From: Nitrososphaerota archaeon
GTDB taxonomy: Archaea; Thermoproteota; Nitrososphaeria; Nitrososphaerales; Nitrosopumilaceae
Assembly: GCA_028867275.1 (NCBI GenBank)
Contig: JAGWGU010000002.1
Location: 21,222-53,221, forward strand
Length of the DNA stretch: 32,000 nucleotides
Direction of reading: 5' to 3'
The position numbers and the translations under genes were made by a program. This document shows, piece by piece, positions 13,925 to 20,227 of this stretch. Numbering within the stretch: position 1 is the first letter of the stretch; every line of letters starts with the position of its first letter. The notes beneath the pieces are model-generated. The model did no database searches and had not been told where the DNA came from. It worked only from the letters and a program-made list of their open reading frames with translations.

Positions 13925-13942
13925 GTCGACAGCGAGTAAAAA
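13925..13942 (+). repeat. inverted copy of the aEF-2 3' end (last 4 codons, stop, then AAA)
   Basis: GTCGACAGCGAGTAAAAA is the exact reverse complement of 18032-18049, which encodes VDSE-stop of aEF-2. Confidence 0.85.
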
Positions 13943-13997
13943 TAGAATCCCCCTTTTCACGAAGGTAAACATGTCATTGTCGTAAAACTTTAGAACA
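13940..13997 (-). repeat. terminal-type repeat copy Y (inverted relative to X and Z)
   Basis: 13969-13997 (ACATGTCATTGTCGTAAAACTTTAGAACA) is the reverse complement of 17975-18003 with one mismatch in 29. The outer ~30 nt are diverged but share the A-run and a CCCCC/GGGGG block. Confidence 0.75.
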
Positions 13998-14115
13998 ATC
14001 AATCAAGATCATGTGATCAATGAAATCATCATCTAGGGAACAAGGATTTATCATAAGAAATGACAATAGTTAACACACACAAATCATCATTTCTTTCCAG
14101 AGGCATAAAGGCATC

Positions 14116-14238
14116 ATGAAAAAGAAGTCACTGCCATTATCACAAGTATATCGCCTGCTTGAACCAGGTCCTGTTGTGCTGCTTACTACATTTGACTCAA
14201 AACGTCCCAACATAATGACAATGTCTTGGCACATTATG
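14116..14238 (+). pseudogene. flavin reductase-like (FMN-binding split-barrel) gene, N-terminal ~41 codons only
   Basis: MKKKSLPLSQVYRLLEPGPVVLLTTFDSKRPNIMTMSWHIM resembles the N-terminus of flavin reductase domain proteins (YRLL.PGPVVLVTT....NIMT.SWH). Similarity stops near 14238 and no other frame continues it. Confidence 0.5.
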
Positions 14239-14483
14239 TTATTTTCCTCTCAAATGGCTTTTACAGGTTTAAGGACATATGGAAGAAACGAGGCATAGGA
14301 TACGATAATGAGAAAAAACAGGAAAATGAATATGAGTATACTCTAGCGGATAAGGACGGTATGCTATACATCAAGGTCAAGACCACTAGAAATACGCACA
14401 TCAAGAGCGGTATTCTGTTCAATATGCTCAAAGAGGTGGGTAAAATTGAGATTTATGAAGAAGAAAATCAACCTAAATTCTGA
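14226..14483 (+). CDS. hypothetical ORF (85 aa; start uncertain)
   Basis: ORF track only; TTG start inside the flavin-reductase fragment; no motif. Confidence 0.25.
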   Translation: MAHYVIFLSNGFYRFKDIWKKRGIGYDNEKKQENEYEYTLADKDGMLYIKVKTTRNTHIKSGILFNMLKEVGKIEIYEEENQPKF

Positions 14484-14640
14484 TAAGAAGAGGTTTTGGT
14501 TGTCTGAGTTAAAGTCGTTAAATGATGGTTCCTTTTGTGATTCTGTTGCCATGCCTATTGACTTGGTAGGAAAATTGGTTTCAAAGGATAAAGTTGAATT
14601 TTATGATGATGAACGGTACGAGCCTGAAAGTGATCTTTAA
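14446..14640 (+). CDS. hypothetical ORF (64 aa)
   Basis: ORF track only. It overlaps the previous ORF by 38 nt in another frame, so the two could be one frameshifted gene. Confidence 0.3.
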   Translation: MRFMKKKINLNSDKKRFWLSELKSLNDGSFCDSVAMPIDLVGKLVSKDKVEFYDDERYEPESDL

Positions 14641-17043: not shown

Positions 17044-17047
17044 GAAC

Positions 17048-17956
17048 TCAATCTTCGTAAAGTGATCGTTGTTCTGTCGGATTTGTACCTAGTATTACTG
17101 TCATGATGTCTTCTGGAATGCATCTTTCGGAATTAGGATTAACTACGTGAAATTCTTCAGTACGAATAACCTGCTCATCGGTAAGTGTATCTAGAAAAAT
17201 ATATTCGTTGAGAATCCAAATCAGCATTACCTTAGGCATTGAAGATATAATAATTCCAATTTCGTGTTTTAATTCGGTAATTTCTTTCTCAATGAGTTGA
17301 TTGTTTGTAGATATCTCGATGGCTATTATTCCTGTAGCATTAAATGATTCTAGTTGGTTATTTGCAACGTGAATTGTGTCTGTAATATTTGAAACACTGT
17401 AGGAATTCTTGGAACGTTTCTTTTTACATTCCACTAAGGTTGAACCAGAACTAGAAGTTATTCGTAAGTCAGGGGTTTGTTCATTCCTTAATTCTTTGAT
17501 AAATTCTACTCTAAAACCACCATTTAAAAAATAATTTGCGACCTTCAGTTCAAAATAAGTGCTGTCAAACTTATCTATTGGAATGACTTGGTCTTTTTTT
17601 CTGTTCTCTTTAGCGTATGCCCTAAGTTTAGTTTGAATATTGGTCTTACCTAGTAAATTTTTAAGAAATACTGCAAACGCAATTAGACGTATGAACTTAC
17701 TAGGGTCTCCGCTACCCAAGTAATAAGAAATAGGAGATTGATTATTTCTTGAAAGCGTTTGGACATCAAACGATGCATTCATTTCTTTTCCAGCTCTTTC
17801 ATACCATTCTTTTCCAAGTACATGCAAAATAATCTGGAGTGCCATTAGAAGTTCCTGGACGTTATGATTGTGTCTAGGATCATCGGGTTTGCCTGCTACA
17901 CGCAATGCGTCTTGTTGTATTTGTGATTTTTCAGGATCAGAAAAAAGTTTCAACAA
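17048..17956 (-). CDS. PD-(D/E)xK nuclease-fold candidate (302 aa), immediately upstream of cas1
   Basis: The segment YFELKVANYF...GFRVEFI...TPDLRITSSSGSTLVECKKK gives the ordered E ... PD ... ExK pattern of restriction-endonuclease-like folds. The N-terminal ~130 aa are helical with no match. TTG start; the stop lies 4 nt before the cas1 ATG. Confidence 0.6.
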   Translation of the reverse strand: MLKLFSDPEKSQIQQDALRVAGKPDDPRHNHNVQELLMALQIILHVLGKEWYERAGKEMNASFDVQTLSRNNQSPISYYLGSGDPSKFIRLIAFAVFLKNLLGKTNIQTKLRAYAKENRKKDQVIPIDKFDSTYFELKVANYFLNGGFRVEFIKELRNEQTPDLRITSSSGSTLVECKKKRSKNSYSVSNITDTIHVANNQLESFNATGIIAIEISTNNQLIEKEITELKHEIGIIISSMPKVMLIWILNEYIFLDTLTDEQVIRTEEFHVVNPNSERCIPEDIMTVILGTNPTEQRSLYED

Positions 17957-17974
17957 TTTAGAAGGATCTTTTAA

Positions 17975-18034
17975 TGTTCTAAAGTTTTACGACAACGACA
18001 TGTCCCCAAGCATAATTTGGGGGTAAACCATTTT
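17975..18034 (+). repeat. terminal-type repeat copy Z, abutting the aEF-2 stop codon
   Basis: See copies X and Y. It ends GGTAAACCATTTT immediately before TTA (the reverse-complemented stop) at 18035. Confidence 0.75.
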
Positions 18035-20227
18035 TTACTCGCTGTCGACGTACTCGTCTGGTGTTGGCACTTCGGGGGCCAATCCTTTTCTCTTTCGTAT
18101 ATCGCCAATTACCTTGGTCAGGATGGAGTTTGGAACTGGAGTCCATGCCTTGAAATGAGTGTTCCACATTGCACGTCCTGCAGTCTGTCCACGCATTATC
18201 TCTGACAAGTCAAATGTCTCAGATGCTGGAAGCTCACCTGATATGATATGTATGACACCTTTTTGTTCCATATTTAGCACCTTGCCTCTCTTGCCAGAAA
18301 TTACACCTGCAACGTTACCAATCATTTCTTGTGGCACACGTACCTCTATTCCAAGTGTTGGTTCAAGCAACACAGGCTGTGCCAAAAGCATTGATCCAGT
18401 ACAGGCTCTTCGAGAAGCAGGTCCTAGTTGTGATAGACCTCGGTGAGCTGGATCCTCGTGTGGAACAAAGTGCGTAAACGTAAACTTGGCACCCCTTACC
18501 TGTTCTCTTGCAAGTGGACCCTCTTTAACAGAATCTTCAAAACCTGAAAGTATAGAATCTGTAGATTCTCCAACAAACTGGACACCCTTGGTCCCATCTA
18601 CCATGACATTACCTCTTACATCAAATCTCATTACACGTTTTGCCTCGTCGCCATCCCATCCTGCATCTTTTAGAATCTTGGCAACTTCCTTCTTATCCTT
18701 GTATTCGTTTAATGTTCCGTTTCTTATCATCTCAGCAATCTTTTCATCCAATGGTTCTACTTTCATGAAGATCTTGTTGTGTCTGTTAGGTGACTTGGAC
18801 ATGATAGGTCCAGCAGAGCCACGAATTGTCTCTCTATAATTAATCAATGGCTGAGATGTGATAATATCCACCTTGGCATCTGCAATCAATGCAGTTGCAA
18901 TCTCCAGGTGCAGCACACCCATGCCAGCAATTACAGTCTCACCTGATTCTTCGTTAATTTTTACAACCAGGTTAGGGTCTTCTATTGTAATACGGTTTAA
19001 TGCTTCAACAAGTTTTGGCAAGTCCTTGGGATGTTTTGGCTCTACTGCAATTTGCACGACAGGCTCTGATACATACTGGATTCCCTCAAATGCCTGGATA
19101 CCTGCAATAGATGACAAAGTTTGACCTGCTCTTGCATGCTCTAGTCCAAGCAAAGCTGGAATATTTCCTGCCGCAAGTTCTCCCACCATTTCTCTTTGGT
19201 TACCCATGAAAAAGTTGACAGATTGGACTCTGCCTTCCCGTTTTGTATCAATCAAGTGTATCCTGTCACCATCTTTTATCTTGCCAGAGAATAGACGCCC
19301 TATTGCAACAGGACCAGCTGCAGGATCTACTGTCATGTTTACAATCATCATCACAGTGGGGCCGTTATCATCACAGTTCAAAAGTGCTTTACCAATATCA
19401 GAATCTAAATCACCCTTCCAAATCTTTGGGATCCTATATTTTTGTGCAACATCAGGAGATGGATGATGTTTTACAACCATTCCAAGTACTGCGTCATACA
19501 ATGGAGCCTTTTCTGCCAATTTTTTGACATCGCCGCCCTCAGAATATGCTTCATAGATATCCTTAAACGAAATTCCTTTCTTCTTCATCACATCTGCATT
19601 AAATCCCCACTTGTCCTTTGCAGAACCAAATGAGACACTACCGTCCTGGATGCTTACCTTCCACTTTTCCTTGTATTCAGGCTCTGCGTAAATGTCAACT
19701 AGTCTGTTAAAGTTGGTAATAATCTCAAGTAACCATTCTTGCATCTTATCTGGAGGCAATCTTAGCTCCTTTATGAGACGGTCAATTTTGTTTATGTAAA
19801 GAACAGGTCGCACTCTTTCTTCTAATGCCTGACGGGTTACAGTCTCAGTCTGTGTCATGATACCTTCAACTGAATCTGACACCACAACTGCACCGTCAAT
19901 TGCTCTAAGACTTCTTGTTACTCTACCAGTAAAGTCAATGTGTCCTGGAGTGTCTATCATGTTGATTACATATTCTTCTCCATTTTGTTCATAAAGTAAA
20001 GTAACGTTTGCCTGGACGATTGTCATCTGTCTGTCTTGTTCAAGTTTCATCGAATCAAGTGCAAGAGCTTGTCCTGCAACAGATGGACTGATGATACCAC
20101 TAGATGCAAGAAGACTATCACTCATGGTTGTCTTTCCGTGGTCTACGTGAGCTATGACTCCAAAGTTGCGAATGTTCTTCTTATTACCAATAATGCTTAG
20201 AATTTGATCTGTCGCCTTGAACTTCAT
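18035..20227 (-). CDS. fusA: translation elongation factor 2 (aEF-2)
   Basis: 730 aa with GTPase motifs AHVDHGKTT, DTPGH and NKID. The diphthamide-site motif HEDPAHRG is present and the protein is full length. Confidence 0.97.
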   Translation of the reverse strand: MKFKATDQILSIIGNKKNIRNFGVIAHVDHGKTTMSDSLLASSGIISPSVAGQALALDSMKLEQDRQMTIVQANVTLLYEQNGEEYVINMIDTPGHIDFTGRVTRSLRAIDGAVVVSDSVEGIMTQTETVTRQALEERVRPVLYINKIDRLIKELRLPPDKMQEWLLEIITNFNRLVDIYAEPEYKEKWKVSIQDGSVSFGSAKDKWGFNADVMKKKGISFKDIYEAYSEGGDVKKLAEKAPLYDAVLGMVVKHHPSPDVAQKYRIPKIWKGDLDSDIGKALLNCDDNGPTVMMIVNMTVDPAAGPVAIGRLFSGKIKDGDRIHLIDTKREGRVQSVNFFMGNQREMVGELAAGNIPALLGLEHARAGQTLSSIAGIQAFEGIQYVSEPVVQIAVEPKHPKDLPKLVEALNRITIEDPNLVVKINEESGETVIAGMGVLHLEIATALIADAKVDIITSQPLINYRETIRGSAGPIMSKSPNRHNKIFMKVEPLDEKIAEMIRNGTLNEYKDKKEVAKILKDAGWDGDEAKRVMRFDVRGNVMVDGTKGVQFVGESTDSILSGFEDSVKEGPLAREQVRGAKFTFTHFVPHEDPAHRGLSQLGPASRRACTGSMLLAQPVLLEPTLGIEVRVPQEMIGNVAGVISGKRGKVLNMEQKGVIHIISGELPASETFDLSEIMRGQTAGRAMWNTHFKAWTPVPNSILTKVIGDIRKRKGLAPEVPTPDEYVDSE

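What the first reader, a model, noticed from the sequence alone, without database searches (positions are those of the whole stretch)
13925..18049. Cas1-solo element without PolB or CRISPR, inserted at the aEF-2 stop codon, with a PD-(D/E)xK protein as Cas1 partner
A ~4.1 kb block with no housekeeping content starts directly after the aEF-2 stop (18035). It contains a 302-aa protein with an ordered E...PD...ExK signature (17048-17956). Four nt later comes a Cas1 homologue (17043-15981; NALLNYGY, GFYHR and VYDLIEPFRW motifs). A 439-aa multi-TM protein converges on cas1, and there are two small ORFs and a truncated flavin-reductase gene. Nowhere in the 32 kb is there a CRISPR array, cas2, cas4, another cas gene or a family-B DNA polymerase. 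Cas1 outside CRISPR loci is the hallmark of casposons. From my memory of the casposon literature (to be verified), thaumarchaeal family-1 casposons sit at the 3' end of aEF-2, but those carry a protein-primed PolB. This is therefore either a decayed or non-autonomous casposon, or a distinct Cas1-solo module whose conserved partner is a restriction-endonuclease-fold protein, functionally reminiscent of Cas4. That pairing, plus the membrane-protein cargo, is the best candidate in this window for an undescribed system.
Basis: partly seen in the sequence, partly recalled or inferred. Interest (0 to 1): 0.85.

Follow-up and report, generated by a model that had tools for sequence, protein, structure and literature searches.

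The report
Decayed casposon next to aEF-2
This block is the worn-out remnant of a known mobile element, a family-1 casposon, sitting in that family's usual landing site behind the archaeal elongation factor 2 gene; it is not a new Cas1-based system.

Summary
The cas1 gene (15981-17043, minus strand) carries two 1-nt deletions. Once repaired, it is 80-89% identical to intact Cas1 genes that sit directly after aEF-2 beside a ~625-aa protein-primed PolB, including in Ca. Nitrosotalea devanaterra. The "two small ORFs" (14229-14637) are the frameshifted C-terminal ~137 residues of that PolB, so PolB is deleted rather than absent.

The element (13938-18036) has ~63-nt terminal inverted repeats and is flanked by the 13-bp target GTCGACAGCGAGT, the last 13 nt of aEF-2 before the "AA" of its stop codon. 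It is the first unit of a tandem array. A second remnant (11739-13924) holds a 22-aa cas1 relic, and a probable third lies at ~10436-11725.

The 302-aa protein does have a conserved E…PD…ExK motif. It is lineage-specific cargo, absent from about 30 other casposon-bearing loci, and its distant homologues are not next to cas1.

One detail may be undescribed. The 13-bp duplication between units 1 and 2 is inverted and the repeat arms are chimeric, which points to flipping by recombination between the arms.

Verdict: ordinary, a new member of a known kind.

The parts
18035..20227 (-). aEF-2 (translation elongation factor 2), the host target gene. Its last 13 nt before the 'AA' of the TAA stop form the casposon target.
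   Evidence: NCBIfam TIGR00490, E=9e-255. 98% aa identity to Ca. Nitrosotalea devanaterra aEF-2.
18037..18049 (-). Proximal target-site copy GTCGACAGCGAGT. The repeat arm supplies the AA that completes the stop codon.
   Evidence: It aligns with the experimentally defined 13-bp TSD ATTGATAAAGAGT of the N. koreensis casposon (PMC8464041).
17974..18036 (-). Terminal inverted repeat arm Y1 of element E1 (AAAAAATGGTTTACCCCC…GTCGTAAAACTTTAGAAC).
   Evidence: Inverted repeat I1; nhmmer 4e-13. The outer end has the same type as the Nt. devanaterra casposon arm.
17048..17956 (-). 302-aa cargo protein, a putative PD-(D/E)xK nuclease.
   Evidence: Invariant E136, PD162-163, E176 and K178. Mrr_cat E=0.0095, below threshold. 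AF2 pLDDT 79 with αβββαβ core. Weak Foldseek hits to HindIII, Hjc, Nt.BspD6I and SfsA. Family of only 7 clusters.
15981..17043 (-). cas1 (casposase) pseudogene with two 1-nt deletions, at ~16862 and ~16289. The second separates the catalytic His from the Asp/Glu.
   Evidence: Repaired protein is 80-89% identical to intact Cas1 of pPolB casposons. Best PDB hit is 6OPM.
14667..15986 (+). 439-aa cargo protein with ~4 N-terminal hydrophobic segments and a ~270-aa soluble part. Function unknown.
   Evidence: No Pfam, NCBIfam, PADLOC or PHROG hit. Rare family. Homologues lie directly downstream of pPolB in L088 and in a pPolB contig next to a TIR-domain protein in L087. Hydropathy.
14229..14637 (+). 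[quoted passage not shown]
   Evidence: tblastn and blastn, 59-86% aa identity to PolB of L004, L005, L007, L062, L091 and L093.
14116..14241 (+). 42-aa N-terminal fragment of a flavin-reductase-like gene, abutting the PolB deletion breakpoint.
   Evidence: Pfam Flavin_Reduct E=0.0046. The same 42-aa fragment lies next to a casposon arm in L012 (83% aa).
13938..13999 (+). [not shown]
   Evidence: It matches the aEF-2-junction arms of L004-L006.
13925..13937 (+). Middle target-site copy GTCGACAGCGAGT between E2 and E1, in inverted orientation relative to the aEF-2 copy.
   Evidence: Perfect 13/13 (18/18 with the flanking A's) reverse complement of 18037-18049. Reproduced in the separately assembled contig L089.
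13862..13924 (-). Repeat arm Y2, the right end of remnant E2. Its outer 30 nt match the distal arm of the Nt. devanaterra casposon 28/30.
   Evidence: (D1).
11739..13861 (.). Interior and left arm (W, 11739-11803) of remnant E2. It holds a cas1 N-terminal relic (12460-12525, +), a 136-aa ORF (13203-13613, +) and a C2H2 zinc-finger ORF (13708-13845, -).
   Evidence: nhmmer 1.3e-4 for W. The cas1 relic is 59-68% identical to residues 1-24 of seven casposon Cas1 proteins. zf-C2H2 4.9e-6.
11726..11738 (-). Degenerate distal target-site copy (GTCTATGGCGAGT on the minus strand, 10/13), in direct orientation to the aEF-2 copy.
10436..11725 (.). Probable third, strongly degraded casposon remnant (E3).
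   Evidence: Positions 10470-10680 align with inner arm plus interior of remnants next to aEF-2 in L026, L029 and L048. An arm-like AAAAAGGAATAC… abuts 11726.

Best explanation
Positions 13938-18036 are a dead family-1 casposon, closest to the ef-2-integrated casposon of Ca. Nitrosotalea devanaterra.

How it got there (inferred from the established behaviour of family-1 casposases): a casposase (Cas1 homologue) inserted the element into the 13-bp target GTCGACAGCGAGT at the very end of aEF-2. Insertion duplicated the target, and the A-rich repeat end regenerated the TAA stop.

What happened since (shown by the sequence):
- An internal deletion removed the small conserved genes and the first ~490 codons of the protein-primed PolB. 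It left a frameshifted C-terminal stub fused to a flavin-reductase gene fragment.
- cas1 acquired two 1-nt deletions.
- Two lineage-specific cargo genes remain intact: a 302-aa PD-(D/E)xK-like protein and a 439-aa membrane protein.

The element is the aEF-2-proximal unit of a tandem array of at least two, probably three, casposon remnants.

The 13-bp duplication between units 1 and 2 is inverted, and the outer and inner halves of the flanking repeat arms are swapped. This is best explained by recombination between the two inverted arms flipping the arm-target-arm junction (inferred).

As it stands, the element cannot transpose or replicate on its own.
For: - Cas1 kinship. The repaired Cas1 has 974 homologues. 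The closest (80-89% identity, ~354 aa, intact) lie directly after aEF-2 in the same host synteny (SIS, VitK2_biosynth, CofH), together with a 621-627-aa DNA_pol_B_2 gene. It is 85% identical to the Nt. devanaterra copy. The best solved structure by sequence is 6OPM.
- PolB relic. Positions 14229-14637 match PolB residues ~490-626 at up to 86% identity.
- cas1 damage. There are exactly two window-specific 1-nt gaps against five intact relatives.
- Repeats and target. The arms match aEF-2-junction arms in L004-L006, L012 and L062. The 13-nt spacing between back-to-back arms is the same as in L011, L020 and L062 (14 nt in L026). It equals the experimentally defined 13-bp TSD (PMC8464041).
- Decay is common at this site. 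Of the loci examined, 12 have near-full cas1, 9 have near-full PolB and 18 have only fragments. An arm abuts the aEF-2 stop in at least 26 of 75 genomes by profile search, and in more by eye.
- Flip. The TSD inversion is perfect. For the outer 30 nt, Y2 resembles Y1 (22-24/30) and L062d (28/30), and Z resembles W (20-22). For the inner 32 nt, Z resembles Y1 (28-29/32) and W resembles Y2 (20-21). Inverted middle TSDs also occur in L026 and L035. In L096, a 95%-identical copy of the element has Y1's outer arm on the other side of the TSD.
- Assembly support. L089 and L090 are 100% identical to 13711-16376, including the flipped junction and the second frameshift.
- Literature. Family-1 casposons at aEF-2, tandem arrays, inactivated copies, solo TIRs and nuclease cargo are all described (PMC4046053, PMC4779613, PMC6563490).
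Against: - The distal target copy is inverted rather than direct, so an extra rearrangement step must be invoked.
- The three or four small genes that family-1 casposons carry upstream of PolB are absent. A deletion is assumed but the ancestor was not observed.
- The flavin-reductase fragment has no counterpart in intact casposons examined, so its origin is unexplained.
- Two ~1-kb cargo ORFs are intact while cas1 has two frameshifts. This could mean selection on the cargo rather than simple decay.
- The right half of the element (16377-18036) is supported only by the MAG contig. Both separately assembled contigs, L089 and L090, end at 16376, inside cas1.
- No formal Cas1 phylogeny was built.
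Confidence: 0.9

Rival explanations
1. A distinct PolB-less Cas1-solo module in which the PD-(D/E)xK protein is Cas1's conserved functional partner, analogous to Cas4.
For: The two genes are 4 nt apart and co-oriented. The nuclease motif is conserved. The same adjacency occurs in L095.
Against: - cas1 is frameshifted twice, and a PolB relic is present.
- About 30 casposon-bearing loci with closely related cas1 have different small genes in that position and no homologue of the 302-aa protein.
- Distant homologues in L001-L003 and L094 have no cas1 or casposon arm nearby.
- L095 is the same element lineage (95% nt identity). There the nuclease has a stop at codon 177 and cas1 is truncated.
- The protein has only 2 Cys, so it lacks the 4-Cys cluster of Cas4, and it gives no Cas4 or PDDEXK_1 Pfam hit.
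Confidence: 0.03
2. A non-autonomous casposon that is still mobile. The element keeps both repeat arms and could be excised and reinserted in trans by a casposase from an intact casposon in the same cell.
For: - Both arms and the target copies are present.
- The N. koreensis casposase integrates a wide range of TIR-derived substrates in vitro (PMC8464041 abstract).
- A 95%-identical copy (L095/L096) sits behind another arm rather than directly behind aEF-2.
- L012 has a shorter derivative with the same flavin-reductase fragment.
Against: - No intact casposon is present in the 32-kb window, and the rest of the genome was not available.
- The arms are now chimeric after the junction rearrangement.
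- The different positions can be explained by tandem insertions or deletions at the same hotspot without any movement of this element.
- All copies seen are at aEF-2-type junctions.
Confidence: 0.12
3. Domesticated cargo. The casposon is dead, but the 302-aa nuclease-like protein and/or the 439-aa membrane protein are kept by selection, for example as an antiviral defence function.
For: - Both ORFs are full length relative to their homologues, while cas1 (1063 nt) has two indels.
- dN/dS for the 302-aa gene against L095 is ~0.19 (14 synonymous and 10 non-synonymous differences).
- The 439-aa family recurs as casposon cargo, once next to a TIR-domain protein.
- Casposons are known to carry nucleases and defence-type genes (PMC6563490).
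Against: - The L095 copy of the 302-aa gene carries a nonsense codon in the catalytic ExK motif.
- There are no PADLOC or PHROG hits.
- The counts are small, and the intactness argument is post hoc.
- The low dN/dS may reflect selection before the element died.
Confidence: 0.15
4. Assembly artefact. The MAG contig is a chimera of several casposon variants, or the frameshifts are sequencing errors.
For: - Casposons are repetitive and hard to assemble (PMC4779613).
- Both separately assembled contigs end at 16376, inside cas1.
- One deletion lies next to a G-run and the other shortens a TT to T.
Against: - Positions 13711-16376 are reproduced base for base in contigs from two other runs. That stretch includes the flipped junction, the PolB stub and the second frameshift.
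- The aEF-2 junction, arm, 302-aa gene and cas1 start are reproduced at 95% in L095/L096.
- Long housekeeping ORFs in the window are intact.
- Fragmented casposons are the norm at this site in dozens of unrelated assemblies.
Confidence: 0.05

Closest known systems
Family-1 casposon integrated in the ef-2 gene of Ca. Nitrosotalea devanaterra (Krupovic et al. 2019, PMC6563490), seen here as L062
   Same: - Host genus level (aEF-2 98% aa identity).
- Same 13-bp target, GTCGACAGCGAGT.
- Same AAAAATGGTTTACCCCC-type arm end.
- Same gene order and orientation (aEF-2, then cas1, with PolB convergent).
- cas1 85% aa identity; PolB C-terminus ~82% aa and 86% nt identity.
- A second remnant follows in tandem after an arm-TSD-arm junction that is 87.5% identical to the window's.
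   Different: - L062 has a near-full-length cas1 match and a ~634-aa PolB ORF. The window copy has a frameshifted cas1 and only the last ~137 PolB codons.
- The window copy carries the 302-aa and 439-aa cargo genes, which are absent from L062.
- Its distal TSD is inverted.
NitAR1-C1 / NitSJ-C1, the prototype family-1 casposons of Nitrosopumilus (Krupovic 2014, PMC4046053; Wang 2021, PMC8464041)
   Same: Cas1 without an HTH domain, protein-primed PolB, TIRs, insertion at the aEF-2 3' end without disrupting the gene, and a 13-bp TSD ending in GAGT.
   Different: Different genus and TSD sequence (ATTGATAAAGAGT). The leader here lacks the TTT motif. The proximal arm lacks the terminal TAGAA/TTCTA motif. 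Those elements are complete.
Inactivated tandem casposons and solo-TIRs of Methanosarcina (Krupovic 2016, PMC4779613)
   Same: Repeated use of one target, tandem units separated by a shared TSD, one copy inactivated, and remnants outnumbering intact elements. TIR-TIR recombination was proposed there as a source of inversions.
   Different: Those are family 2/4 elements at tRNA or intergenic sites. An inverted TSD with swapped arm halves did not appear in the passages of that paper retrieved by keyword search.
CRISPR-Cas adaptation module (Cas1-Cas2, with or without Cas4)
   Same: A Cas1-fold integrase gene next to a PD-(D/E)xK-type gene.
   Different: There is no array, no cas2 and no effector genes. 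Cas1 groups with casposases by identity and context. The nuclease-like protein is not Cas4.

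Membership tests
Family-1 casposon | Cas1-family casposase, compact with no extra domains, related to family-1 casposases | tested here: met
   The repaired 354-aa protein is 80-89% identical to Cas1 of aEF-2-linked, pPolB-bearing elements. The gene is a pseudogene with two 1-nt deletions. No formal tree was built.
Family-1 casposon | [quoted passage not shown] | tested here: inconclusive
   Only a frameshifted relic of residues ~490-626 remains. This shows ancestry but not present function.
Family-1 casposon | Terminal inverted repeats | tested here: met
   Arms at 13938-13999 and 17974-18036. The inner 29-34 nt are 91-97% complementary. The outer halves are mismatched, which is explained by the junction flip.
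Family-1 casposon | Target-site duplication as direct repeats | tested here: not met
   A perfect 13-nt copy is present but inverted. A direct, degenerate copy (10/13) lies at the far end of the next unit, at 11726-11738. This is interpreted as secondary inversion. Direct TSDs are seen in L011, L012, L020, L062, L079 and L083.
Family-1 casposon | Insertion at the 3' end of aEF-2 without disrupting it | tested here: met
Family-1 casposon | Three or four conserved small genes upstream of PolB (PMC6563490) | tested here: not met
   No homologue was found when ORFs of nine intact casposons or casposon-like contigs were searched against the window. The region is deleted.
CRISPR-Cas adaptation module | CRISPR array and cas2 nearby | tested here: not met
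   No array by TRF or the repeat finder, and no cas hits in the Pfam scans of the window ORFs. Sequence outside the 32-kb window was not seen.
PD-(D/E)xK nuclease superfamily (302-aa protein) | Ordered E…(P)D…(D/E)xK motif on an αβββαβ core | tested here: inconclusive
   The motif is invariant in 7 sequences and the predicted core topology fits. However, Mrr_cat is below threshold (E=0.0095), Foldseek PDB hits are all E>1e-3 although enriched in HindIII, Hjc, BspD6I and SfsA, and a profile search against PDB gave nothing.
Cas4 | RecB-like nuclease with a four-cysteine Fe-S cluster | tested here: not met
   The sequence has only two cysteines and gives no Cas4 or PDDEXK_1 Pfam hit at E≤0.1.

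The most novel reading that the evidence does not exclude
Two novel readings are not excluded.

First, the two intact cargo genes may be a retained, undescribed accessory or defence function that casposons ferry between Nitrosotalea genomes. These are the rare 302-aa PD-(D/E)xK-like protein and the 439-aa membrane protein, whose family recurs right after casposon PolB and once beside a TIR-domain protein.

Second, the arm-13 bp-arm junctions of tandem casposon arrays may be recurrently invertible, which would shuffle the repeat ends between neighbouring elements.
Probability: 0.15. Interest if true: 0.45.

Novelty: new member of a known kind. Interest (0 to 1): 0.2.

Why it matters
It matters mainly as a correction. 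A Cas1 gene without CRISPR and apparently without PolB at this locus is not a new Cas1 system. It is the expected decay product of a family-1 casposon.

Two by-products may interest casposon specialists.

- **A casposon graveyard.** In Nitrosotalea and its relatives, the aEF-2 3' flank is almost always occupied by casposon arms and fragments. Truly empty sites appear only in more distant genomes.
- **Inverted duplications.** The 13-bp duplication between tandem units is sometimes inverted, with swapped arm halves. This suggests that recombination between back-to-back repeat arms reshuffles casposon ends. That is relevant to how solo repeats and repeat-spacer-like arrangements arise from casposons.

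Tried and rejected
- **Target-copy orientation.** I first read the inverted aEF-2-end copy at 13925 as part of an extended TIR, or as an inverted duplication of the aEF-2 end. I rejected this because homology stops exactly at the 13-bp casposase target boundary and the copy is flanked on both sides by arms. It is therefore a tandem junction.
- **Larger inversion.** A larger inversion between the outermost arms (scenario B) gives the same arm pairings. I consider it less parsimonious. In L012 and L062 the Y-type outer arm closes the aEF-2-proximal, cas1-side element next to the flavin fragment or PolB. In L020 the zinc-finger arm has a Z-type outer end. It is not excluded.
- **Chimeric arms alone.** These could also arise from unequal crossing-over between direct arms. 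Only the inverted TSD demands a flip.
- **Small genes in other casposons.** I looked for homology between the 302-aa protein and the small genes that occupy the aEF-2/cas1 gap in other casposons (121+146, 162+140, 163 and 215 aa). There was none. The 302-aa ORF of L087 is also unrelated.
- **Distal TIRs of L004/L005.** They were not found with simple patterns.
- **Source contig.** An exact-protein lookup of the source contig failed.

Full report
**Observation**

The window carries aEF-2 at 18035-20227 on the minus strand (TIGR00490, E=9e-255). Immediately downstream lie:
- a 302-aa ORF (17048-17956, minus);
- a Cas1 homologue (15981-17043, minus);
- a convergent 439-aa ORF (14667-15986, plus);
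- two small plus-strand ORFs (14226-14483 and 14446-14640);
- a 42-aa flavin-reductase-like fragment (14116-14241).

GC content drops to 0.32-0.36 across roughly 11-18 kb. No tRNA, Rfam family or CRISPR-like array was found, and no cas gene appeared in the Pfam scans of the window ORFs. The physical description is therefore accurate, with two important omissions described next.

**cas1 is a pseudogene of a family-1 casposase**

The Cas1 reading frame is split into three ORFs. Aligned with five intact relatives, the window copy has exactly two private 1-nt deletions:
- at ~16862 (GGTAG-GGG);
- at ~16289 (GCG-TAG, a TT shortened to T).

The second deletion separates the catalytic His of GFYHR from the Asp/Glu of VYDLIEPFR.

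The repaired 354-aa protein finds 974 homologues. The best are intact ~354-aa proteins at 80-89% identity. Contexts were retrieved for five of them (L004, L005, L006, L091, L093). In L004, L005, L006 and L091 the gene lies a few hundred bases after aEF-2, and in L004-L006 the same host synteny is visible (SIS, VitK2_biosynth, CofH radical-SAM). Wherever the contig is long enough (L004, L005, L091, L093), a convergent 621-627-aa DNA_pol_B_2 gene is present.

A scan of one genome per species with aEF-2 placed the host in or next to Nitrosotalea, with 98% aa identity to Ca. Nt. devanaterra. The same arrangement is present in the Nt. devanaterra chromosome (L062), where cas1 is 85% identical. This matches the ef-2-integrated family-1 casposon reported for that species (PMC6563490). 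By sequence, the best solved structure is 6OPM, annotated as Cas1. From memory, that entry is the Methanosarcina mazei casposase.

**PolB is deleted, not absent**

The two "small ORFs" match the C-terminal end of the casposon PolB. Positions 14229-14465 and 14431-14637 align to residues ~497-577 and ~566-634 of the PolBs of L062, L091, L007 and L093 at 72-86% aa identity. There is a frameshift between the two pieces, and nucleotide identity to L062 is 86%.

Homology starts abruptly at ~14229-14240, where it abuts the flavin-reductase fragment. The same 42-aa fragment lies next to a casposon arm in L012, and homology with the window ends at 14238. This point is therefore a deletion or recombination breakpoint. 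The event removed about 490 PolB codons and the small genes that family-1 casposons carry upstream of PolB. Those genes gave no hit when ORFs of nine intact casposons or casposon-like contigs were searched against the window.

**Ends and target**

In L004-L006 the aEF-2 stop is followed by AAAAATAGAA(N)CCCC…TTGTCGTAAA(A/G)(C/T)TTTAG. The same arm occurs in the window at 13938-13999, preceded by GTCGACAGCGAGT.

The arm next to the real aEF-2 end (17974-18036) starts AAAAAATGGTTTACCCCC. This is the arm type of the Nt. devanaterra element.

A profile of the arms found four copies in the window, at 11740-11803 (+), 13924-13862 (-), 13938-13999 (+) and 18035-17974 (-). It also found back-to-back arm pairs separated by exactly 13 nt in L011, L020 and L062, and by 14 nt in L026. 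Thirteen nt is the TSD length determined experimentally for the N. koreensis family-1 casposon, and its TSD ATTGATAAAGAGT aligns with GTCGACAGCGAGT (PMC8464041). The arm's leading AA completes the TAA stop, so "inserted at the stop codon" is literally correct.

**A tandem array**

On the plus strand the layout is:
- probable remnant E3 (~10436-11725);
- degenerate target copy (11726-11738, 10/13, direct relative to aEF-2);
- E2 (11739-13924);
- target copy (13925-13937);
- E1 (13938-18036);
- target copy at the aEF-2 end (18037-18049).

E2 contains a 22-aa relic of the Cas1 N-terminus (12460-12525, 59-68% identity to seven casposon Cas1 proteins). It also contains a C2H2 zinc-finger ORF whose close homologues sit next to casposon arms in L012 and L020, and downstream of aEF-2 in L010. 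E3 is supported by alignment of 10470-10680 to inner arm plus interior of remnants in L026, L029 and L048.

Such decay is the rule at this site. Among the loci examined, 12 have near-full cas1, 9 have near-full PolB and 18 have only fragments. An arm abuts the aEF-2 stop in at least 26 of 75 genomes by the narrow profile. By eye, most of the remaining Nitrosotalea-like loci carry a second arm type there as well. Clearly empty sites are seen only in more distant genomes such as L044, L077 and L085. Relatives such as L016, L019 and L022 reach the host block homologous to window 6350-7761 only 1.8-2.8 kb after aEF-2, against 10.3 kb here. They lack E1 altogether.

**The inverted duplication**

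The middle target copy is a perfect reverse complement of the aEF-2 copy (13/13, or 18/18 with the flanking A's). Integration should instead give a direct repeat, as seen in L011, L012, L020, L062, L079 and L083.

The arms are chimeric:

| Arm segment | Best pairings |
|---|---|

Undoing an inversion of [outer arm - 13 bp - outer arm] restores two elements with self-consistent arms and a direct TSD.

The simplest cause is recombination between the two inverted arms that flank the 13-bp spacer. A larger inversion between the outermost arms gives the same pairings and is not excluded. Intramolecular TIR recombination has been proposed for casposon inversions (PMC4779613).

Three further observations fit the flip model:
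- Inverted middle copies also occur in L026 and L035.
- In L096 a 95%-identical copy of the E1 right end has Y1's outer 33 nt on the opposite side of the TSD. There the TSD (13/13), inner arm (33/34) and downstream sequence (508/522) are conserved, but the outer arm is only 20/35 identical.
- The flipped junction is reproduced base for base in a separately assembled contig, L089.

**The cargo**

The 302-aa protein belongs to a very small family of 7 clusters.
- *For a PD-(D/E)xK nuclease.* E136, P162-D163, E176 and K178 are invariant. The AF2 model (pLDDT 79) has an α-β-β-β-α-β core around those residues.
- *Weak or negative evidence.* Foldseek hits to PDB are all weak (E>3e-3), though enriched in PD-(D/E)xK enzymes such as HindIII, Nt.BspD6I, Hjc, SfsA and RecU. 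Pfam Mrr_cat is sub-threshold, and a profile search of PDB sequences gave nothing.

A PD-(D/E)xK nuclease is therefore plausible but not proven. The protein is not Cas4, because it has only two cysteines and no Cas4 profile hit.

It is not a conserved Cas1 partner:
- No homologue exists in any other casposon locus collected.
- Other casposons carry unrelated small genes in that slot.
- The distant homologues in L001/L002, L003 and L094 have no cas1 or arm nearby.
- The only cas1-adjacent copies (L095/L096) are the same element lineage. In L095 codon 177 (the C of VECKKK) is a stop, and cas1 homology ends after ~30 codons.

The 439-aa protein has hydrophobic segments within residues ~10-165 and no family hit. 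Its few homologues are casposon-linked. In L088 a homologue directly follows PolB, as here. In L087 one lies on a PolB contig next to a TIR-domain protein.

Nuclease and defence-type cargo is well documented in thaumarchaeal casposons, including REase, NERD, OLD, HNH, Cas4 and HEPN (PMC4046053, PMC6563490).

**Mechanism**

Shown:
- kinship of cas1 and the PolB relic to family-1 casposons;
- the arms and the 13-bp target copies;
- the tandem layout;
- the disabling mutations.

Inferred from established casposon biology:
- casposase-mediated integration into the aEF-2 3' end with target duplication;
- later decay by deletion and frameshifts;
- junction inversion by arm-arm recombination.

The element cannot now supply integrase or polymerase. 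Mobilisation in trans is conceivable but unsupported.

**Caveats**
- No formal Cas1 tree was built.
- The right half of E1 (16377-18036) rests on the MAG contig alone, apart from the 95%-identical L095/L096. Both exact-match contigs stop at 16376.
- The dN/dS of ~0.19 for the 302-aa gene rests on only 24 substitutions.

**Verdict**

This is a degraded family-1 casposon in a tandem graveyard at the canonical aEF-2 site, and therefore a new member of a known kind. The only possibly undescribed feature is the recurrent inversion of the inter-element target copy, with exchange of arm ends.

Noticed in passing
window 13862-13999; also L026:7216-7338, L035:~13894-13970, L096:419-552: The 13-bp target copy between tandem casposon units is inverted relative to the aEF-2 copy, and the flanking repeat arms have swapped outer halves. 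The same inversion occurs in two other genomes, and an outer-arm swap occurs in a 95%-identical element copy. This suggests the arm-spacer-arm junctions flip by recombination.
   Followed up: partly
window 11739-13924: A second casposon remnant (E2) has arms at both ends. It holds a 22-aa Cas1 N-terminal relic (12460-12525), a 136-aa ORF with weak homologues in other aEF-2-downstream arrays, and a C2H2 zinc-finger ORF (13708-13845) that travels with casposon arms in L012 and L020.
   Followed up: partly
window ~10436-11738: A probable third, heavily degraded remnant (E3). Positions 10470-10680 match inner arm plus interior of remnants in L026, L029 and L048. An arm-like AAAAAGGAATAC abuts the degenerate target copy at 11726-11738. 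A TSD-like ATCACAAGGGT lies at ~10430.
   Followed up: partly
L007-L086 (aEF-2 loci of 80 species-level genomes): The aEF-2 3' flank is a casposon graveyard in Nitrosotalea, Nitrosotenuis and relatives. Most loci have an arm abutting the stop codon, in two arm types ('…GTCGTAAAACTTTAGAAC' and '…GTTATGATTTGTTGGA'). Fragments of cas1 or PolB outnumber intact elements. Clearly empty sites appear only in distant genomes (L044, L077, L085).
   Followed up: partly
L087:5281-7227 and L088:1-2727: Homologues of the 439-aa membrane protein are casposon cargo elsewhere. One lies directly after protein-primed PolB (L088). Another is followed by a TIR-domain (Thoeris ThsB-like) protein on a PolB-bearing contig (L087). 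Together they may form a defence cassette.
   Followed up: no
L095:985-2159: A 95%-identical copy of the 302-aa gene in another metagenome has a TGA at codon 177, inside the catalytic ExK motif. Its downstream cas1 diverges after ~30 codons. The same element lineage is therefore decaying differently elsewhere.
   Followed up: yes
window 14116-14241 and L012:13228-13353: An identical-length 42-aa N-terminal fragment of a flavin-reductase-like gene sits near a casposon arm in two genomes. No full-length source gene was found in any casposon locus, so its origin is unexplained.
   Followed up: partly
window 16376: Two Logan contigs (SRR32006850 and SRR32006840) are 100% identical to the window and both end at exactly 16376, inside cas1. 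This hints at strain variation or a repeat boundary there.
   Followed up: no
window 8208-9122: A TFIIB gene lies between the casposon remnants and the conserved host block. TFIIB is listed among genes often carried by thaumarchaeal integrated elements (PMC6563490). Relatives have a 61%-identical copy 4-8 kb downstream of aEF-2.
   Followed up: no
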